The translations under genes were made by a program, and so were the position numbers. This document shows, one piece after another, positions 279 to 56,001 of a stretch of DNA of 64,000 nucleotides. The stretch is taken from positions 200,161 through 264,160 of the forward strand of contig JBMNEQ010000002.1 of NCBI GenBank assembly GCA_050948865.1. The letters are read 5' to 3'. The DNA comes from Bacilli bacterium. Lineage in GTDB: Bacteria > Bacillota_I > Bacilli_A > RF39 > UBA660. Position 1 is the first letter of the stretch, and each line of letters opens with the position of its first letter. The notes beneath the pieces were generated by a model. It was not told the origin of the DNA. It saw only the letters and a program-made list of their open reading frames with translations, and made no database searches.

Positions 279-325
279 TGTCAAGAAAGAGCACTTTTTA
301 ATCTTAATAGTGCTTTTTTTTGACA
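279..325 (+). terminator. Intrinsic terminator after pilin 1
   Basis: Inverted repeat TGTCAAGAAAGAGCACT...AGTGCTTTTTTTTGACA with T tract. Confidence 0.6.
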
Positions 326-341
326 AAAAAATCCTTTTTTA

Positions 342-370
342 TTGACACTCTATTAATCATATGTTATGCT
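342..370 (+). promoter_or_regulatory. SigA-type promoter of pilin 2
   Basis: TTGACA-17-TATGCT with extended TG; AAGGAGG RBS downstream. Confidence 0.7.
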
Positions 371-399
371 TAAAATATACAAAATAAGGAGGAAAGAAA

Positions 400-843
400 A
401 TGAATAAAAAAGGATTTACTTTAGTAGAATTACTTGCTGTTATTGTAATTTTAGCTATAATTTTAGCTATAGCAGTTCCTAGTATTACAGGATTATTAGA
501 AAAACAACGAGAAAACTCGTTTGAATCTAATGTTAAAATGTTAATAAGAGGTATTGATTATAAGAAATTAGAATTATCATCAGAGGATAAGGAGTTTACA
601 GATCAAGAAGAAGGTTATCAATTAAATACAAATTTAGCTAATGACATTGCCGATTTTGGAGGAAACCCTGATGATTATCAATGTTTTGTAATTAATAGTG
701 TTGATCCAATTACTGTTACAATTATAACTAAATCTACTAGTAAGTTTGGTCAATTAGGAGTAAAAAATGCTACTTTATCAAGTGTAACAGTTGCTAAAGA
801 TGGTGATGAGGGTTTTCCAGAAGCAAATTGTGGAGTTCAATAA
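400..843 (+). CDS. Type IV pilin (prepilin N-methylation motif)
   Basis: MNKKG|FTLVELLAVIVILAII class III signal peptide; two C-terminal-region Cys. Confidence 0.9.
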   Translation: MNKKGFTLVELLAVIVILAIILAIAVPSITGLLEKQRENSFESNVKMLIRGIDYKKLELSSEDKEFTDQEEGYQLNTNLANDIADFGGNPDDYQCFVINSVDPITVTIITKSTSKFGQLGVKNATLSSVTVAKDGDEGFPEANCGVQ

Positions 844-963
844 TTAATAAAATAATTATAAAGTTTAATTTAAAACTGTTAACAAGTAATATTGATACAG
901 TTTTAATTTTTTTAAAATATTAACTTTTTGTCACAATTTGACAAAGTTAAATTAATAGAAAAT
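612..963 (+). repeat. 352-bp direct repeat, copy 1 (copy 2 at 2665..3016)
   Basis: Sequence reads identical at an offset of 2053; covers the pilin 2 3' half and downstream intergenic DNA. Confidence 0.9.
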
Positions 964-1013
964 GTCAATAACTTTTGAAAATGTCTCACATTAGATAAAA
1001 AAAATAGTTTGGA

Positions 1014-1149
1014 AAATTTATTCCAATTCCTCCATCAATTCAGGAATCTAGATAATATCCTTTAGTTAGATGGCAATCAAATTTTTAATTTGATTGCCTG
1101 AAACATTACGGATATTATCTCCTAAATTGATGGATTATCTCGGCATAAA
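1014..1149 (-). other. Conserved structured element (putative ncRNA) downstream of the IS1202-like transposase
   Basis: TTTATGCCGAGA...GGAATTGGAATAAATTT termini with nested stems; homologous to 50391..50522. Confidence 0.6.
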
Positions 1150-1155
1150 ACTCGT

Positions 1156-2394
1156 TTATGCATAAACCTTTTCTTTATGAGATTTTTTCATTTGTTTCTC
1201 AAAAGAAGCTCTTTTCCAAGGATGACTCATAGGGGGCACATATTTTTCCTTTTTTATTTCTTCCTGAGGTAGATCAAGTTCTTTTGAAAACCTTTTATTT
1301 CTGGACAGTTCTCTTAACTCATAAATTTTTTCGTCTATACTCACCACTAAATCACCATTAAATGCTTCAATAACTAATGCTTTAGTTTTAGGCCTGAAGC
1401 ATTTTAACTCATTATTAAAATAAGGTAAATAATACTTGTTTTTATATTTAATGGAATTACCTCTATCTATTATTCTTGTTGATAAAACTGCTAAAGTATA
1501 ATTTATTTTTTCTTCACTAGGTGATTTTTCAAATGCACTTGGAAACTTCTTATAATCCATAGCAAAGCGTTTATTATATTTAGGAATAAAAACATTTATT
1601 AAATATTCATTAGCTTTTTCAAGTGTGTGTATTCCGTTTAATTTTAACTCATTAATTAGTCTTCCTTGAAATGTACCGTTAGTACGTTCAATAATTGGTT
1701 TTGCTTCAGGAACACTACTTGTTTTTAAATCAATACCTAGTTGTTTACATGAATAACCATACTGGGTAAGGATATCATTTTCAGATGTTTTTTTATCAGG
1801 GTTTAATTTGTTATAATTGAATACAGTTCTATTATCTGTTTTAAAACTATAAGGAATGCCATAACCTTTTAGGATTTGATATTTGGTTTGATAATAACCC
1901 TTTAAAGTTTCCTGATAGTCAAAATAACCGCCGACAACTGTGTTTGTTGCTTTATCTACAGCTAGATGAAGACATGTTTTAAAATCCCCAAACCATTGGT
2001 GTATTGAACCGTCTTGTTCAATAATTTCTCCGAAGTATTTTGGTTTTTCTTGCCTTGGGTGAGAATCCTCAATTGCTATCTCATTATTAACAATAACTTC
2101 TACTTCTTCTTCAGTTTTACCAGTCAGTAATTTTTCTTTTAACAATTGTTGTTTTCTATATTCCTTTCTAGTTCTTTTACGAGCCCTAGGCGATAAAATA
2201 CCTGCCTTATTTAAAGTATTATAAATAAAATTATAAGAGACCTTTATGTTTTCAACTTCTTCAAGATATTCTTTAAAATGATTAAAATTAAAACCTTGAT
2301 ATTTAATAGTATAAAGTAGTACAATATCATCAGAAAGAGATTTATCGTGTGCTATACTGGGTTTCTTATTTCGCTTGCCATGTACAAAACCAGG
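1156..2394 (-). CDS. IS1202/ISNCY-family transposase; N-terminus disrupted in this sequence
   Basis: FGEIIEQDGS.H.W, LHLAVDKAT, KTDNRTVF, IERTNGTFQGRL, PPMSHPWK. Frame stays open upstream of the ORF-track start to about 2394 (GFVHGKRNKKP). Confidence 0.85.
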   Translation of the reverse strand, partial: PGFVHGKRNKKPSIAHDKSLSDDIVLLYTIKYQGFNFNHFKEYLEEVENIKVSYNFIYNTLNKAGILSPRARKRTRKEYRKQQLLKEKLLTGKTEEEVEVIVNNEIAIEDSHPRQEKPKYFGEIIEQDGSIHQWFGDFKTCLHLAVDKATNTVVGGYFDYQETLKGYYQTKYQILKGYGIPYSFKTDNRTVFNYNKLNPDKKTSENDILTQYGYSCKQLGIDLKTSSVPEAKPIIERTNGTFQGRLINELKLNGIHTLEKANEYLINVFIPKYNKRFAMDYKKFPSAFEKSPSEEKINYTLAVLSTRIIDRGNSIKYKNKYYLPYFNNELKCFRPKTKALVIEAFNGDLVVSIDEKIYELRELSRNKRFSKELDLPQEEIKKEKYVPPMSHPWKRASFEKQMKKSHKEKVYA

Positions 2395-2664
2395 AGGTAC
2401 CGCTTTTTTTATAAATGAATAAAAAGACGATCACTTTAGTAGACTTACTAGCTAAAGATAGTTGTAATGCAACCCGATAATTTTAGCTATAGCCGTTCCT
2501 AGTATCTACTAGGACTTATTAGAAAAACAACGAGAAAACTCGTGTTCATTCATTCTTAATTGTTAACCTGTCTCATTCATAGCACCTCAGTGATATATAA
2601 GAAATTACTTTTGAGATCATCATCAGAGGATAAGCACTTAAGACAGTATCATAAGTTAAGCACT
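2395..2664. other. Chimeric, garbled segment: pilin-2 5' half interleaved with the transposase 5' end (probable consensus artefact)
   Basis: + strand pieces match 400-611 (ATGAATAAAAA, TTTTAGCTATAGC, AGAAAAACAACGAGAAAACTCG); - strand at 2544-2588 reads GAGGTG...ATG AGA CAG GTT..TTA AGA ATG AAT GAA (MRQV.LRMNE). Confidence 0.7.
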
Positions 2665-3016
2665 AGGTTATCAATTAAATACAAATTTAGCTAATGACAT
2701 TGCCGATTTTGGAGGAAACCCTGATGATTATCAATGTTTTGTAATTAATAGTGTTGATCCAATTACTGTTACAATTATAACTAAATCTACTAGTAAGTTT
2801 GGTCAATTAGGAGTAAAAAATGCTACTTTATCAAGTGTAACAGTTGCTAAAGATGGTGATGAGGGTTTTCCAGAAGCAAATTGTGGAGTTCAATAATTAA
2901 TAAAATAATTATAAAGTTTAATTTAAAACTGTTAACAAGTAATATTGATACAGTTTTAATTTTTTTAAAATATTAACTTTTTGTCACAATTTGACAAAGT
3001 TAAATTAATAGAAAAT
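2665..3016 (+). repeat. 352-bp direct repeat, copy 2 (3' half of pilin 2)
   Basis: Identical to 612..963. Confidence 0.9.
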
Positions 3017-9867: not shown

Positions 9868-9944
<77 letters not shown>

Positions 9945-20560: not shown

Positions 20561-20574
20561 AAAATTTAATTTTA

Positions 20575-20775
20575 AAAAGCAATGAAAAGAAATAGTAAAT
20601 AATCCTCTTATCAATAGTGAATTGACGGTTAGTGGAAGTTAATGATAATGTTTATTGAACGTAGCTTGGAGCTTTTAAAGTAAATCTGCTATAAAGATAA
20701 AGAGTTGTATAGATTTCTATAAAATAAGGTGGTACCGCGTTATATCGTCCTTATATTATGGAAATCTTTTTTTTT
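20575..20775 (+). promoter_or_regulatory. T-box leader (specifier GUA/Val or CGU/Arg)
   Basis: Stem I with GA motif, AGUA and GAACGUAG; T-box AAGGTGGTACCGCG at 20726; CGTCCTT. Confidence 0.88.
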
Positions 20776-24640: not shown

Positions 24641-25090
24641 ATGAAAAAATTTAATAAAACACTTCGTGGCTATAATCCTGAAGAAGTTAATGCTTTTTTG
24701 GATGAAGTTATTGGTCGAGTTGAAAAGATGGTTATAGAAAGAAGAAAAAATGAAAAACAAATGAGGGAACTTCTTTCTAAAGTTTCTAATTTAGAAGAAC
24801 AAATAAATCGTTATAAAGCTTTAGAGGGAACGATGAACCAAACTATAGTTGCGGCTCAAGATAGTGGGGAACAAATAAGAAGATTAGCCAAACAAGAAAG
24901 AGATATGGTTGTTAATGAAGCGAGGAAAAATGCTAATCGGATTATTAATGAAGCGTTAATGAGATCTGAAAAAATAGAATATCAAACTAGTATTATGCGA
25001 AAAAATATTTCTTTATTTAAAAAGAGATTAAGAGGGGTCATTGAAAATCAATTAGAGATGATTGATGATATTGAAATTTTAGAAATATAA
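24641..25090 (+). CDS. divIVA: DivIVA
   Basis: LRGYNPEEVNAFLDEV plus coiled coil; sepF-divIVA-ileS order. Confidence 0.92.
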   Translation: MKKFNKTLRGYNPEEVNAFLDEVIGRVEKMVIERRKNEKQMRELLSKVSNLEEQINRYKALEGTMNQTIVAAQDSGEQIRRLAKQERDMVVNEARKNANRIINEALMRSEKIEYQTSIMRKNISLFKKRLRGVIENQLEMIDDIEILEI

Positions 25091-25299
25091 AACAAATGAG
25101 GGAGACGGTTTTTTAATTAATTTAAAAGCGAGTTGGAACTGGTGAAAGCCAATAAAATTAATAAAAAATAGATCACTCCTGATGTTCCTTTTTAAAATAG
25201 TAGAAAAGGACGCTTAGCGTTATAAAAGAAAGTGCATAATAGTTATTATGAACTAAGGTGGTACCGCGTTTTAACGTCCTTATTTAAGGATGTTTTTTT
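25091..25299 (+). promoter_or_regulatory. Ile T-box (canonical, transcriptional)
   Basis: AUC specifier at 25172-25174, AAGGTGGTACCGCG, terminator ACGTCCTTATTTAAGGATGTTTTTTT. Confidence 0.92.
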
Positions 25300-50053: not shown

Positions 50054-50074
50054 TTTCATCCCCCGTATTGAAAA

Positions 50075-50245
50075 AACCATGAAAGTGATTCTAAAAACGA
50101 TAAAACCTGATTAAATACAGGTGGGCATCTCATTAATACCTTTAGGATTCTTACATCATATGAGTAAGCATTCACACCAGCACTAAATTAGATTCCCTTA
50201 TCGTTGTTTGTAGGTTTTTCTTTTTACGAATCAACAATCATGGTT
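50075..50245 (-). ncRNA. ssrS: 6S RNA
   Basis: AACCATGA/TCATGGTT closing stem; GGGAATCT/AGATGCCC, CCCACCTG..CAGGTT and ATGC motifs resemble B. subtilis 6S-1; lies in the aspS-rarA neighbourhood; promoter TTTACA-17-TATACT at 50280-50252. Confidence 0.8.
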
Positions 50246-50390
50246 AAATTAAGTATAGCATTTTTCTTTATTCTTGTAAATGTTAAAAGTCTTTTTTGTT
50301 AAATAAAAAGGTAAGTTCCCGCCCAACTACCATATGGGAACTTAGTTGTTGAAATAATTTTTTGGATTCCTTTTAAGGAATTTTTTTGTA

Positions 50391-50522
50391 TTTATGCCGA
50401 GAAAACTTTATTATTTTAGGCAATTCGTGTTAGTCGTAAAAGCGAAAGCGTCTATACGCTTTCCACGACAAAATTAACACGAATTGGGTTCCTAAAATCA
50501 TAAAGGAAATTGGAATAAATTT
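50391..50522 (+). other. Conserved structured element (putative ncRNA) upstream of the IS30 transposase
   Basis: Same termini and stem architecture as 1014..1149 (-). Confidence 0.6.
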
Positions 50523-50822
50523 AAATATAAATTAAAACGTTTATAAAAAAGCGTCTAAATACTTGACTTAAATCCAATCTTTATCAGTAATATCATCTGT
50601 AATAGAACTGTTTTTATTAAGAACCTATTTTTTAAATTCCTAATTCATTATATATAACAAACAAGAAACGAGCAAATTCATATCACTTAATAATTTAGGG
50701 ATTTTAACCATCAAACTTAGTTCATCAATTATTAGAAATGAATTTTACTTTGCTATATTTATTAATTAGTTATATTATATTCTATGTTGGTTTATTTGCC
50801 ATTAATGAAAGGAAGTGTCAAA

Positions 50823-52010
50823 ATGGCAAAATCAAGTTACAATCATCTTACTAAAGAACAAAGAGATGTTATAGAAATTTTAATAAGAAAAAACGTTACA
50901 TTTACTGATATTGGAAAAACAATTGAAAAGGATCGCACCACTATTGCTAAAGAAGTAAAAAGAAATAGATACTCTAAATATTCAAACAACAATGAAAACA
51001 CATCAAATTGTCCTAAACTCAATAAAGTTCCATATGTTTGTAATAATTGTTCAGCCAAAGGAGGATGCTCTAAAAAAAAGCTTTACTATAACGCTAAGAT
51101 AGCATACGATTTATATAAACTTAAACTTCGTACAACAAGAGAAGGCATTGATATCACTCCTCAAGAGATTGAAGAAATAGAAGAAATAATAGTTCCACTT
51201 ATAAAAGATAAAAAACAAAGTGTTAACCAAGTATTTGCAAACCACAAAGACATTCTTTGCATGAGCAAAACAACTTTTTATAAGTACATTGATATTAACG
51301 CTTTGTCTTTAACAAATTTAGATTTACCTAAAAAAGTAAAATACAAAAAAAGGAAATTAAATCAACGTAGAAATAGACGTGAATTAGCTATTCTAAAAAA
51401 TAGAACTTATAACGATTATCTGCTTTTCACAACTATACATCCTAGAATGAACGTTGCCCAAATGGATACTGTTATTGGAAAACAAGGTAATTCAAAAGTA
51501 TTATTAACGCTTTTAATTATTAAAACTAAGTTTATGTTGATTTTTTTATTAGATAAAAATAATATAGCATCAGTAGATGATAAATTTGTATTTTTAAAAG
51601 ACACACTTGGTATTAAGTTATACGCTCAAGTTTTACGGATTATTTTGACCGACAATGGAGGAGAATTTTTCAATCCTGATATGATGGAAAGAGATTATAA
51701 AAACAATAAAAAAATATGTAATGTGTTTTATTGTGATCCTTATCAATCAAATCAAAAAGCAGAAATAGAAAAAAATCACTATTACATCAGAAAGGTTTTT
51801 ACTAAAGGAACATCTTTTGAAAATTTGACTGATGAAACAGTGAAGTTTCTTGAGAATAACATAAACAATACTCCAAGAGTAAGTTTAGATAATAAGACAC
51901 CATATGAATTAACTAAAAAACTTTATCCGAATTTTATAAAAAAATTAAATTGCTCTTACATAAAACCTGATAATGTAACATTTAATCTAAGTGATTATAA
52001 AATTAAATAA
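50823..52010 (+). CDS. IS30-family transposase
   Basis: HLTKEQR..IE HTH, TIAKEVKRN, QMDTVIG, LTDNGGEF, FYCDPY..QKAEIE. Confidence 0.93.
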   Translation: MAKSSYNHLTKEQRDVIEILIRKNVTFTDIGKTIEKDRTTIAKEVKRNRYSKYSNNNENTSNCPKLNKVPYVCNNCSAKGGCSKKKLYYNAKIAYDLYKLKLRTTREGIDITPQEIEEIEEIIVPLIKDKKQSVNQVFANHKDILCMSKTTFYKYIDINALSLTNLDLPKKVKYKKRKLNQRRNRRELAILKNRTYNDYLLFTTIHPRMNVAQMDTVIGKQGNSKVLLTLLIIKTKFMLIFLLDKNNIASVDDKFVFLKDTLGIKLYAQVLRIILTDNGGEFFNPDMMERDYKNNKKICNVFYCDPYQSNQKAEIEKNHYYIRKVFTKGTSFENLTDETVKFLENNINNTPRVSLDNKTPYELTKKLYPNFIKKLNCSYIKPDNVTFNLSDYKIK

Positions 52011-52336
52011 AGTTTTCATTGATGATCATTTTGCTTACAAATGATTGTCAACCAATCACTTAAAAATCTACTATAACTTTAAATGATTGGTTGGCAAATA
52101 ATAGCCAACAACAATTCTTTTTTATTATTCCGATACGGGAACTAAGTCTTAAAATGACCAAGTACGTATCCTTTTTTAGCTGCTATAAATTTATAACATC
52201 GAATATATAGTATCATAATATTGAAAAAAAGACCATCTTTTTAGATTTTAAACACTAAAAAAACTCCCACAAACGAGAACTTTGTAACGAAATTATATTT
52301 TAGCATTCAAACGTGAACTTACTTTTTAATTCAACG

Positions 52337-53065
52337 TTAAAAGTCTTTTTTTCTTTTAAATTCTAAAACTTTAGCGGGCCTTTTTTGTTTTGTTTCTTCT
52401 TTATTTAAATAGTCAAATAAAATTCTTTTAAACATTGCTTTTTTATTTATTTTAGGATGATTTTTAATTTTACTGATTAAAGATAAACTTTTTAATTTTT
52501 CATCTTCTATTTCTTGATTATTCGTGTTAAAACTTTCTAAATATTCATTATAAAGATCCATATCTAATAACAAGTTTTCTACAATTTTAGAACCAACTAT
52601 ATCTTTAACATAAAGAGTTTCATATAGAAAATGAAAATAAATACTATCAGTAGGTTTTAAATTTAAAGTGTTGCCATTAGAATATTTTATTTTAGTTAAA
52701 GTGTTTAAAAAAGCTTTATTATATAATTTTTTATAATTTAGATGAGAAGGAAGTTGTTTAGATATTATATTTAGGTGAAAAAAGACATCATTGTAATATA
52801 AACCAATATCATTTAATTTATATTTAATTGGAGAATCAATTTTTAGAAAACTTAAATATAAAGATAGAATAATTTTATCTTGCTTTTTTAATCTAGTATT
52901 TTCCTCTTCTTTTCTTCTAAAAATATCATTATTTTTAATAATAAATTCTTCACTATAATTATCAATAACAATTATATTATCTTTAATTTTAGAATAGATT
53001 CTCATACTTTCAAAAATAAGATCAGCAGTAGTTTTAGGTAATGTTTTTAAATCTTTATATTCCAT
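52337..53065 (-). CDS. Paralog of the N-domain of the 48587..50053 ATPase, without an AAA module
   Basis: Shared LP..T...IF.SM.I, ILSLYLSFLK, YE.LY motifs and a similar C-terminal tail. Confidence 0.75.
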   Translation of the reverse strand: MEYKDLKTLPKTTADLIFESMRIYSKIKDNIIVIDNYSEEFIIKNNDIFRRKEEENTRLKKQDKIILSLYLSFLKIDSPIKYKLNDIGLYYNDVFFHLNIISKQLPSHLNYKKLYNKAFLNTLTKIKYSNGNTLNLKPTDSIYFHFLYETLYVKDIVGSKIVENLLLDMDLYNEYLESFNTNNQEIEDEKLKSLSLISKIKNHPKINKKAMFKRILFDYLNKEETKQKRPAKVLEFKRKKDF

Positions 53066-55780: not shown

Positions 55781-55795
55781 AATAAATCCTTTCTA

Positions 55796-55922
55796 TTTTT
55801 ATGTTTAGTTTTGTTTATTTGTCTAAACATTTACGATTACAGTTAGTAACCGGGAAGTATCCGCTGATAATTCGATTAACTTCCTCCTCGTCAATCAATA
55901 AATTATTGATCCAAGCGCTTTT
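55796..55922 (-). ncRNA. glmS ribozyme
   Basis: AGCGCT.GGATC...TGACGAGG...ATCGAA..ATCAGCGGA.ACTTCCCGG core directly upstream of glmS. Confidence 0.9.
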
Positions 55923-56001
55923 AATCTTAATTATATTTTTTATATCACACCCTTTCAATTTAGTGTATAAAATTTAAGGAATCTAAAATACTAATATTGA
56001 G

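What the first reader, a model, noticed from the sequence alone, without database searches (positions are those of the whole stretch)
1014..1149. Same covarying ~135-nt structured element carried by two unrelated IS families (IS1202-like copy)
Seen, on the transposase-sense (-) strand just after the stop codon: TTTATGCCGAGA-TAA-TCCATCAATTTAGG-AGATAATATCC-[internal loop and 12-bp hairpin]-GGATATTATCT-AGATT-CCTGAATTGATGGA-GGAATTGGAATAAATTT. The IS30 element 49 kb away carries, also on its transposase-sense strand, TTTATGCCGAGA-AAA-CTTTATTATTTTAGG-CAATTCGTGTTA-[hairpin]-TAACACGAATTG-GGTT-CCTAAAATCATAAAG-GAAATTGGAATAAATTT. The basal stem, purine-rich internal loop, TTTAGG/CCT junction and 3' bulge (AGATT/GGTT) are conserved. 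The stems between differ in sequence but still pair, and lengths match (136 vs 132 nt). G-U pairs work on this strand only. This is the signature of a selected RNA or ssDNA fold, not a recent copy. Inference: a transposon-associated ncRNA module shared across DDE families (regulator, protein-binding scaffold, ribozyme or targeting RNA with a variable apex). Both hosts appear to make unusually long target duplications. I do not recognise it as a named Rfam family, but could not search.
Basis: partly seen in the sequence, partly recalled or inferred. Interest (0 to 1): 0.88.

Follow-up and report, generated by a model that had tools for sequence, protein, structure and literature searches.

The report
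Plasmid single-strand origin inside insertion sequences
The 135-base hairpin is not a new RNA but the well-known single-strand replication origin (ssoA/palA) of rolling-circle plasmids, here carried as an internal module by two unrelated insertion sequences, which suggests these jumping genes use it to copy a single-stranded intermediate.

Summary
Copy A (window 1014-1149, minus) and copy B (50391-50522, plus) share conserved ends, covarying stems and a basal stem that forms on one strand only.

The element is already known. Its 5' box TTTATGCCGAGAAAA is the RSB box of ssoA/palA, the lagging-strand origin of rolling-circle plasmids. pT181 and pE194 carry the same two end boxes and the same architecture. 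It acts as folded single-stranded DNA, so Rfam does not hold it.

The context is what looks new.
- All 11 copies in this 975-kb genome lie inside insertion sequences (IS): 7 in an ISNCY/IS1202-like IS and 4 in an IS30-family IS.
- No Mob_Pre or Rep_trans gene was found in the genome.
- In other genomes, 21 of 63 loci with the same box lie next to transposases (IS30, IS3, ISNCY, IS481-like, IS256, IS21 and others). 12 of 63 lie on plasmid-type loci.
- Near-identical sso lineages cross IS-family borders.
- The module is optional: 5 of 15 ISNCY relatives carry it and 0 of 29 IS30 relatives do.

Best reading: RNA polymerase primes second-strand synthesis on a single-stranded form of the IS. [quoted passage not shown] I found no paper describing an sso inside an IS.

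The parts
1014..1149 (-). ssoA-type single-strand origin, copy A (136 nt). RSB box at 1149->1135 (TTTATGCCGAGATAA, 14 of 15). 3' box GGAATTGGAATAAATTT at 1030->1014.
   Evidence: fold; covariance model R1, 90.3 bits, E 4e-22; same boxes in pT181 and pE194.
963..2664 (-). ISNCY/IS1202-like insertion sequence, window copy (IS-A). Its right end ...TTATTGACA lies about 50 nt beyond the sso. The left ~250 nt of this copy are mosaic with pilin-gene sequence.
   Evidence: 7 copies, 96.8% identity; ends, ~27-bp duplications in the other copies; intact 465-aa transposase of copy L001: transpos_ISNCY_2, 341.9 bits, cut-off 250.
1156..2430 (-). Transposase frame of the window's IS-A copy. 424 codons are open and the N-terminus is disrupted (intact copies have 465 aa). 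The stop codon is at 1156-1158.
50391..50522 (+). ssoA-type single-strand origin, copy B (132 nt). RSB box at 50391-50405 (15 of 15). 3' box GGAAATTGGAATAAA at 50505-50519. AAGCGA/AAGCGT near the apex, each one mismatch from CS-6.
   Evidence: 88.4 bits, E 1.5e-21; CS-6 scan.
50298..52336 (+). IS30-family insertion sequence (IS-B), 2.04 kb, with terminal inverted repeats GTTAAATAAAAAGGTAAGTTCCCG ... CGGGAACTTACTTTTTAATTCAACG.
   Evidence: 4 copies, 99.6-100% identity; a 2017-2019-nt contig with these borders in 3 of the 4 runs laid: X1, X5, X6.
50823..52010 (+). IS30-family transposase, 395 aa.
   Evidence: HTH_38; transpos_IS30, 87 bits, cut-off 80.
50283..50297 (.). Left copy of the 15-bp target duplication of IS-B (TTAAAAGTCTTTTTT). 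The right copy is at 52337-52351.
   Evidence: read from the flanks.

Best explanation
The element is an ssoA/palA-type single-strand origin of replication that lies inside two insertion sequences as an internal cargo module.

When the strand carrying TTTATGCCGAGAAAA (the transposase-sense strand in both IS) becomes single-stranded, it folds into a ~130-nt imperfect hairpin. The conserved base of that hairpin (RSB box paired to GGAAATTGGAATAAA) is recognised as a promoter by host RNA polymerase. A short RNA is made and serves as primer, and the complementary DNA strand is synthesised. This mechanism is established for plasmid ssoA; it is inferred here from sequence and architecture.

[quoted passage not shown] The sso would then turn that single-strand circle into the double-stranded minicircle that integrates.

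My odds: identity as an ssoA-type origin about 0.9. It serves the IS by priming second-strand synthesis on some single-stranded form about 0.55. That form is specifically the copy-out intermediate about 0.35.
For: Identity
- The RSB box is 15 of 15 in copy B and 14 of 15 in copy A, named as the typical conserved sso sequence in PMC6395029 and PMC5703833.
- pT181 (L119:3771-3926) and pE194 (L120:641-794) have identical 5' TTTATGCCGAGAAAAC and 3' GGAAATTGGAATAAA boxes, the same internal loop and a long variable hairpin. The pT181 copy starts 9 nt after the mob/pre stop, and copy A starts 7 nt after the transposase stop.
- The stems covary.
- The basal stem forms on one strand only, which fits the known orientation dependence.
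- The RNA-polymerase priming mechanism is described in PMC4595007 section 21.

Part of the IS
- All 11 model hits in the genome lie inside the repeated units, bounded by inverted repeats and target duplications.
- No Mob_Pre and no Rep_trans gene was found in the 94.5%-complete genome.

Recurrence
- 21 of 63 RSB-pattern loci lie next to transposases: IS30 6, IS3 6, ISNCY 3, IS481-like 2, IS256 1, IS21 IstB 1, TnpB 1, DDE_Tnp_1_6 1. Most are 3-16 nt from the stop codon.
- An IS110 case (L132) and two further IS3 cases (L121, L133) turned up among relatives.
- In three IS3-like loci the sso lies between the orfB stop and the right inverted repeat.
- ISNCY relatives at 57-66% protein identity hold an sso in the same slot.

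Link to copy-out
- IS3, IS30, IS21 and IS256 go through a figure-of-eight that host replication converts to a minicircle (PMC3299598 abstract and background).
- IS1202 and IS110 are also listed as circle-formers (bioRxiv 10.1101/2023.06.07.543989 introduction).
- All 8 IS3-like cases carry the sso on the transposase-sense strand. That is the strand cleaved at the right-end donor in IS2.
- A 381-bp non-coding element in genome G057 (4 copies) keeps the sso.
- In this genome the two sso-bearing IS have the most copies: 7-8 and 4, against 2 each for an IS1634, an IS110 and a second IS30 element, none of which gave a model hit.
Against: - No experiment. Neither priming nor a single-stranded IS intermediate is shown for these elements.
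- CS-6, the second conserved ssoA motif, is absent from copy A and one mismatch off in copy B. An exact CS-6 occurs in only 8 of 64 family members.
- The module is dispensable. Only 5 of 15 ISNCY relatives with downstream sequence carry it; 3 carry a different hairpin, 3 a third insert, 1 nothing, and 3 distant ones something else.
- 0 of 29 IS30-relative loci in the same bacterial family carry it, although several of those loci have short flanks.
- A second IS30 element, an IS110 and a ~240-bp two-ended derivative of IS-B in this same genome lack it.
- Orientation relative to the transposase is not uniform. It is opposite in 4 IS30-like loci, the IS256 locus and the IS21 locus.
- Many family members sit beside housekeeping genes with no transposase nearby.
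- I computed no baseline of IS-family abundance, so enrichment in circle-forming families is not tested. One TnpB and one DDE_Tnp_1_6 neighbour do not fit.
- PriA is present, so the host has a normal restart primosome.
Confidence: 0.55

Rival explanations
1. Passenger. The sso was captured from plasmids by recombination (RSB is a known recombination hot spot). It persists only because it sits in a permissive non-coding slot between the transposase gene and the terminal repeat. It does nothing for the IS.
For: - RSB was defined as a recombination site that forms plasmid cointegrates (PMC5703833).
- The module is optional and is replaced by other inserts at exactly the same slot in ISNCY relatives.
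- It is absent in 29 of 29 IS30-relative loci.
- sso lineages hop between IS families. Interior identities: window A to an IS3-borne copy 0.80; IS30 to IS256 0.87; IS481-like to IS30 0.87; IS110 to ISNCY 0.79-0.86; unrelated pairs about 0.6-0.67.
- A derivative of IS-B breaks 3 nt before the sso.
Against: - Capture has recurred in at least 7 IS families, always intact, with both boxes and the stems kept through compensatory changes.
- It is retained in ISNCY relatives down to 57% protein identity.
- It is retained in a 381-bp non-coding derivative.
- The sso-bearing IS are the most numerous in this genome.
Confidence: 0.25
2. Establishment after horizontal transfer. The sso serves when the IS enters a new cell as single-stranded DNA, by conjugation (riding on a plasmid or ICE) or by natural transformation. 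It converts the incoming strand to duplex so that the transposase can be expressed and the IS can jump.
For: - sso1 of ICEBs1 is needed for stable acquisition by recipients (PMC4595007).
- Mycoplasma ICEs with DDE transposases carry an sso-like sequence between the transposase gene and the terminal repeat (PMC3942029 discussion).
- The genome is rich in competence-type pseudopilin genes next to IS-A.
- The distribution among relatives is patchy: 16 of 150 other genomes, and 0 of 2 in the same genus.
Against: - On a linear strand, synthesis from the sso runs only towards the 5' end. In IS-B that covers just 94 nt, and in IS-A it never reaches the right end. A circle is therefore needed (inference).
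- No relaxase (Mob_Pre) or Rep_trans gene was found in the genome.
Confidence: 0.12
3. RNA-level element. The transcript hairpin acts as regulator, terminator, stabiliser, ribozyme or guide for the transposase.
For: The fold is very stable as RNA too. In IS-A and the IS3-like elements it lies just after the transposase stop in the sense orientation.
Against: - The end boxes are identical to those of a DNA element with a known single-stranded-DNA function in plasmids.
- It sits antisense to the transposase in 6 IS loci and upstream of it in others.
- No T-tract follows it.
- There is no Rfam match.
- The variable stems show no target-like relation to flanks (not tested beyond inspection).
Confidence: 0.05
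4. A self-standing miniature mobile element, or a preferred insertion target, that merely ends up beside transposases.
For: - Solitary copies lie beside housekeeping genes.
- The end boxes form an imperfect terminal inverted repeat.
- In run X4 the 130-nt sso B is a separate contig with four different upstream contexts.
Against: - In the window the sso has IS-specific sequence on both sides, shared by all copies, and no duplication at its own borders.
- The only multi-copy non-coding element seen (G057) is 381 bp with its own ends and has the sso in its middle.
Confidence: 0.03

Closest known systems
ssoA / palA lagging-strand origin of rolling-circle plasmids (pT181, pE194, pMV158 family)
   Same: Identical RSB box and identical 3' box. 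Same basal stem with a G-T pair, same internal loop, a 3'-side bulge and a long variable imperfect hairpin. Same size class: 132-136 nt here against 154-156 nt. It lies just after the stop codon of the upstream gene and is strand-specific.
   Different: It lies inside DDE-transposase insertion sequences in a chromosome where no Mob_Pre or Rep_trans gene was found. CS-6 is absent in copy A and imperfect in copy B. Function is untested.
[quoted passage not shown]
   Same: A plasmid-type single-strand origin carried by a chromosomally integrated mobile element. It is orientation-specific and thought to prime second-strand synthesis on a single-strand circle.
   Different: ICEBs1 has a relaxase and replicates by rolling circle. 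The IS here have only a DDE transposase. I made no sequence comparison with sso1.
sso-like sequence in Mycoplasma ICEs with Mutator-like DDE transposases (PMC3942029)
   Same: The sequence lies between the transposase gene and the terminal inverted repeat and resembles a plasmid single-strand origin. It was read as a sign of transient replication (one passage in the discussion).
   Different: Those are 20-30-kb conjugative elements. The similarity is to plasmid pMmc-95010 and is not stated to be RSB-type. They are not simple IS.
Integron attC sites
   Same: Conserved ends, a variable but pairing centre, and function as a folded single strand of one polarity (recalled, not tested).
   Different: attC sites are recombination sites for an integrase and have different end motifs. 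No integrase or cassette array is present here. This is a likeness of design only.

Membership tests
ssoA/palA single-strand origin | RSB box 5'-TTTATGCCGAGAAAA-3' at the 5' base of the hairpin | tested here: met
   Copy B 15 of 15, copy A 14 of 15. The motif is named in PMC6395029. The same box occurs in pT181 and pE194.
ssoA/palA single-strand origin | Partly complementary 3' arm that closes the base, and a long imperfect palindrome of about 130-160 nt | tested here: met
   GGAA(A)TTGGAATAAA is identical to pT181 and pE194. Folds. Model R1 scores 88-90 bits.
ssoA/palA single-strand origin | CS-6 (TAGCGT/TAGCGA) in the terminal loop | tested here: inconclusive
   Copy B has AAGCGA and AAGCGT (one mismatch each) near the apex. 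Copy A has none within one mismatch. An exact CS-6 occurs in only 8 of 64 family members that carry the RSB box.
ssoA/palA single-strand origin | Structure rather than sequence is conserved in the stems; active in one orientation only | tested here: met
   13 of 13 variable pairs have two-sided changes; 95.4% paired against 75.9% in shuffles. The basal stem forms on one strand only. Activity itself was not tested.
ssoA/palA single-strand origin | Resides on a rolling-circle replicon, on the displaced leading strand | tested here: not met
   All 11 copies lie inside IS. No Mob_Pre or Rep_trans match in the genome. Rep_1 and RepB were not searched in the genome.
ssoA/palA single-strand origin | RNA-polymerase-dependent primer synthesis and conversion of single-stranded to double-stranded DNA | not testable with these tools
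   Needs biochemistry or a plasmid assay.
IS30 family (host of copy B) | IS30-type transposase, terminal inverted repeats, target duplication | tested here: met
   transpos_IS30, 87 bits against a cut-off of 80. HTH_38. Inverted repeats and a 14-15-bp duplication in 4 of 4 copies.
ISNCY / IS1202 group (host of copy A) | ISNCY-type transposase and long target duplication | tested here: met
   transpos_ISNCY_2, 341.9 bits against a cut-off of 250. About 27-28-bp duplications read in 6 copies. That this model equals the IS1202 group, and that IS1202 makes 24-29-bp duplications, is recalled and not tested.
Any Rfam RNA family | Match at or near the gathering score | tested here: not met
   No match over either copy at gathering score. 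The best below-threshold matches are eukaryotic snoRNA/miRNA models with E 0.2-10.

The most novel reading that the evidence does not exclude
Plasmid-type single-strand origins are exchangeable, cis-acting accessory cassettes of insertion sequences that transpose through circles (IS3, IS30, IS21, IS256, IS1202/ISNCY, IS481, IS110). They let RNA polymerase prime the second strand of the displaced single-strand IS circle. The long-unspecified 'host replication' step of copy-out-paste-in would then have a dedicated, element-encoded origin, which IS families swap among themselves like a gene cassette. In ISNCY relatives the same slot holds alternative hairpins, one of them with a near-consensus sigma-A promoter built into its stem. 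These may be functional equivalents.
Probability: 0.3. Interest if true: 0.8.

Novelty: new member of a known kind. Interest (0 to 1): 0.55.

Why it matters
The hairpin itself is textbook plasmid biology, so the claim of a new RNA class falls.

An sso sitting inside simple insertion sequences, recurring across IS families, was not described in any paper my five sso-directed full-text searches found. The closest precedents are conjugative elements.

If the sso serves the IS, it points to a real single-stranded circular intermediate in copy-out-paste-in transposition. It would also name the priming step that turns that intermediate into the integrating minicircle, a step the literature leaves to 'host replication mechanisms'. 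This can be tested directly with deletion or inversion constructs.

It also gives annotators a cheap marker. The RSB box plus hairpin should not be read as evidence of a plasmid when it lies beside a transposase.

Tried and rejected
Rfam: nothing at gathering score over either copy. Only chance-level eukaryotic models at E 0.2-10.

BLAST of copy B against the plasmid collection: only 22-35-nt end-box matches, E 0.009-0.4. The stems are too diverged for BLAST, so I fetched pT181 and pE194 instead.

PriA loss as a reason for an element-borne priming site: rejected, because PriA is present.

Kink-turn, integron attC, retron and guide-RNA readings: considered from the sequence and dropped once the RSB identity was found. 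None was tested formally.

Circle junctions: contigs of 4 public runs laid on IS-B showed no joint going back from the right to the left end. Contigs drop rare forms, so this says nothing either way. The 'skips 92' joint inside the hairpin (side 20) looks like a palindrome artefact. The 50387->52308 joint in one X4 contig (side 26) may be a deletion derivative. No RNA holder was listed for the stretch.

The depth peak over the sso in run X4 is mixed with other peaks from unrelated contigs, so I use it only as a hint.

Limits of the counts:
- By my own arithmetic about 135 chance matches are expected for 19 fixed bases with 31 gap lengths in 596 Gb.
- I kept the 65 elements in 63 loci that also have the TTT prefix. 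I treated the other 52 loci as chance from their weak folds (whose output was partly cut).
- Helix 1 is invariant by this selection.
- Of the 63 loci, neighbours were classed by clustering plus Pfam or NCBIfam on 60 chosen ORFs.
- About 22 loci have housekeeping, unknown or unexamined neighbours.
- Some loci are the same places as G-handle loci (L055 = L129 = L163; L116 = L162; L049 = L122).

Supplementary files were not consulted. The S1 figure of PMC6395029 (annotated sso) could refine where CS-6 sits.

Full report
WHAT IS THERE

On the minus strand the window reads, 7 nt after a transposase stop codon (1156-1158), TTTATGCCGAGATAA ... GGAATTGGAATAAATTT (1149->1014). On the plus strand at 50391-50522 it reads TTTATGCCGAGAAAA ... 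GGAAATTGGAATAAATTT. The two end boxes each occur exactly twice in the window. Both stretches fold into a single long hairpin that 0 of 200 shuffles equal, whether folded as RNA or as DNA. The basal stem, which contains a G-T pair, forms only on the named strand. One detail needs adding: copy B lies upstream of its transposase gene, not after it.

BOTH COPIES ARE INTERNAL PARTS OF INSERTION SEQUENCES

The genome is 975 kb in 4 contigs, 26% G+C and 94.5% complete. It holds 7 identical copies of type A and 4 of type B, one of which has a single stem-restoring change. A covariance model finds these 11 copies and no others.

Type A lies in a 1.68-kb element:
- The intact transposase is 465 aa and is classed ISNCY.
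- The target duplications are about 27-28 bp.
- The sso ends about 50 nt before the right end.

Type B lies in a 2.04-kb IS30-family element:
- It has clear terminal inverted repeats and 14-15-bp duplications in 4 of 4 copies.
- The sso occupies nt 94-225 from the left end.

Contigs of three of the four public metagenome runs laid (X1, X5, X6) reproduce the IS-B borders.

WHAT IT IS

A full-text search for the 5' box led to a plasmid paper. It names 5'-TTTATGCCGAGAAAA-3' as the recombination site B (RSB) sequence. [quoted passage not shown] A review states the following (PMC5703833, passages read):
- RSB lies in the pT181 lagging-strand origin palA, also called ssoA.
- ssoA is about 160 nt.
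- It folds when single-stranded and is recognised and primed by RNA polymerase.
- It works in one orientation only.

I fetched pT181 and pE194. Their palA regions carry exactly the same 5' TTTATGCCGAGAAAAC and 3' GGAAATTGGAATAAA. They also share the basal stem, the internal loop and a long variable hairpin. In pT181 the element starts 9 nt after the mob/pre stop codon. The element is therefore an ssoA-type single-strand origin. It acts as folded DNA, which explains why Rfam has nothing. The second ssoA motif, CS-6, is one mismatch off in copy B and absent in copy A. It is exact in only 8 of 64 members carrying the RSB box.

THE FAMILY AND ITS COVARIATION

63 loci (65 elements) have the full 5' box and the hairpin. 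They come from Streptococcus, Staphylococcaceae, Bacillus, Planococcus, Erysipelotrichaceae and many uncultured Bacilli and Clostridia.

65 sequences were aligned: 61 of these elements plus the two window copies and the palA regions of pT181 and pE194. The outer 21 pairs are 95.4% paired, against 75.9% in shuffles. All 13 pairs that vary do so by two-sided changes, and slid controls collapse. The first helix is invariant because the scan selected for it. Model hits in relatives, however, show compensatory changes there too, for example TCGA/TTGA in L128.

WHERE FAMILY MEMBERS LIVE

Counts are out of the 63 loci.
- 12 are plasmid-type, with Mob_Pre, Relaxase, Rep_trans, Rep_1 or RepB next door. 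This is the expected home.
- 21 lie beside a transposase, most of them 3-16 nt from its stop codon. The families are IS30 (6), IS3 (6), ISNCY (3), IS481-like (2), IS256 (1), IS21 IstB (1), TnpB (1) and DDE_Tnp_1_6 (1).
- 8 lie beside serine or tyrosine recombinases, a coupling protein or MvaI-type endonucleases.
- The rest have housekeeping or unexamined neighbours.

Among 150 other genomes related to this one, 16 have a model hit: 15 of 90 in the same family and 0 of 2 in the same genus. Their contexts again include IS3, ISNCY and IS110. One genome has four copies of a 381-bp non-coding element with the sso in its middle. In three IS3-like loci, inverted repeats place the sso between the orfB stop and the right end.

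THE MODULE IS OPTIONAL AND IT MOVES BETWEEN IS FAMILIES

ISNCY relatives share the same right end (...GACATTTTC...TATTGACA). They also share a small hairpin (GCGGG...CCCGC) whose loop is a slot. Of 15 relatives with enough downstream sequence:
- 5 hold an ssoA in the slot.
- 3 hold a different ~125-nt hairpin. Scanned in one of them (L153), it contains an 11-of-12 sigma-70-type promoter, TTGACA-16-TAAAAT.
- 3 hold a third insert.
- 1 holds nothing.
- 3 distant ones differ altogether.

None of 29 IS30-relative loci in the same bacterial family has a model hit, although several have short flanks. In this genome, a second IS30 element, an IS110, an IS1634 and a ~240-bp two-ended derivative of IS-B also lack it.

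Comparing only the interiors:
- The window's copy A is closest to IS3-borne copies (0.77-0.80), not to those of other ISNCY elements.
- An IS30-borne and an IS256-borne copy share 0.87.
- An IS481-like and an IS30-borne copy share 0.87.
- IS110-borne and ISNCY-borne copies share 0.79-0.86.
- Unrelated pairs share about 0.6-0.67.

The sso therefore behaves as a cassette exchanged among IS families.

HOW IT MOST LIKELY WORKS

Established for plasmid and ICE sso elements: the single strand folds, RNA polymerase treats the fold as a promoter, and a short RNA primes the complementary strand (PMC4595007 section 21; PMC5703833).

Inferred here: the same happens on a single-stranded form of the IS. 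No Mob_Pre or Rep_trans gene was found in the genome that could produce such a strand by rolling circle.

The IS families involved are those reported to form circles:
- IS3, IS30, IS21 and IS256 make a figure-of-eight that 'host replication mechanisms' convert into a minicircle (PMC3299598, abstract and background).
- IS1202 and IS110 are listed with them (bioRxiv 10.1101/2023.06.07.543989, introduction).

In that pathway one strand is cleaved at the donor end and joined to the other end. A flanking 3'-OH then primes re-synthesis of the donor. By inference, the joined strand is displaced as a single-strand circle. That is exactly the substrate an sso acts on in plasmids. For a circle the position of the sso does not matter, which fits its varied positions. 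Its strand should match the strand that is circularised. All 8 IS3-like cases carry it on the sense strand, which is the strand cut at the right-end donor in IS2.

Against this reading:
- The module is dispensable.
- Its orientation differs in other families.
- No baseline of IS-family abundance was computed.
- Nothing was measured experimentally.

I put identity at about 0.9, a benefit to the IS through second-strand priming at about 0.55, and the copy-out intermediate as the substrate at about 0.35. The main rival is a neutral passenger spread by recombination at RSB, at about 0.25.

NOVELTY

The element is known. My five sso-directed full-text searches found no paper that places an sso inside an insertion sequence. 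The nearest precedents are sso1 of ICEBs1 and an sso-like stretch between the DDE transposase gene and the terminal repeat of Mycoplasma ICEs. Subscription journals and supplements were not searchable.

I file it as a new member of a known kind, in an unreported host context. Interest is moderate. The ncRNA claim falls, but the IS-sso association gives a testable handle on the replicative step of copy-out-paste-in transposition.

Noticed in passing
window 398-963 and 2413-3016; IS-A copy 963-2664: The window's IS-A copy is flanked by two ~600-bp stretches that are 89.75% alike (pseudopilin gene regions). The left ~250 nt of this IS copy read like a letter-by-letter mixture of IS sequence and pilin-gene sequence, and the transposase N-terminus is lost. 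This may be a consensus of filled and empty alleles in the assembly, or a gene conversion. No clean 27-bp duplication is seen here.
   Followed up: partly
L153:1383-1410 (-), and the same slot in L156, L159: ISNCY relatives without ssoA carry, at the same slot, a different ~125-nt hairpin. Scanned in L153, its 3' arm holds TTGACA-16-TAAAAT (11 of 12). By eye, L156 and L159 keep a similar motif (TTGACT-16-TAAAAT) while the stems covary. It could be another class of single-strand origin or single-strand promoter.
   Followed up: partly
G057 loci L124, L139, L142, L144 (about nt 1404-1784 of each): A 381-bp non-coding repeat in 4 copies at 98-100% identity, with a 142-nt ssoA in the middle. It is inserted beside housekeeping genes (DHH, MurD-like).
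   Followed up: partly
G000 C1:~305290-305540 (L003 ~290-540, minus strand): A ~240-bp element with both terminal repeats of IS-B but neither sso nor transposase. Homology to IS-B stops 3 nt before the sso start.
   Followed up: partly
G000 C1:151463-154284 (L211): An IS1634-family element (587-aa transposase, 358.8 bits) flanked by a perfect 417-bp direct repeat. A second copy is at C2:55139-57129. It shares a 62-bp stretch (88.7%) with IS-B (window 50578-50639). It has no sso.
   Followed up: partly
G000 C1:65937-68716 and C1:302417-305195: A 2.78-kb repeat (96.7%) encoding a 404-aa protein whose N-terminus looks like a reverse transcriptase (recalled likeness, not tested). It lies next to pilin-like genes that occur in many diverged copies. 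It could be a diversity-generating retroelement or a group II intron.
   Followed up: no
window 50070-50249 (-): A 6S RNA gene (Rfam 64.8 bits) ends about 50 nt from the left end of IS-B. The window also holds two T-box leaders (20573-20755, 25087-25284), a glmS ribozyme (55791-55930) and a tRNA (9868-9941).
   Followed up: no
window 963-990 (right end of IS-A) and the right ends of IS3-like loci L011, L017, L121: The IS ends carry an outward-facing TTGACA at or near the tip (IS-A ends ...TTATTGACA). The left end of IS-A has TGATAAT about 14 nt in. Abutted ends in a circle could form a junction promoter, as known for circle-forming IS (recalled). With a 27-bp duplication the spacing is unclear.
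   Followed up: no
run X4 laid on window 50391-50520: In one landfill metagenome the 130-nt sso B is a separate contig (depth 66 against 34-44 for the IS body). It has four different upstream continuations, which hints that the same cassette sits in other contexts in that community.
   Followed up: no
L134, L135, L136, L137, L140 (relatives): A sister group of hairpins with the same architecture but a different base (TTTATAAGCAAATC ... GAGGAATTATAAA). They have no RSB box, and the neighbours checked (MutS, SpoIVA, a BRO-domain protein, a TdeIII endonuclease; L140 not checked) include no transposase.
   Followed up: no
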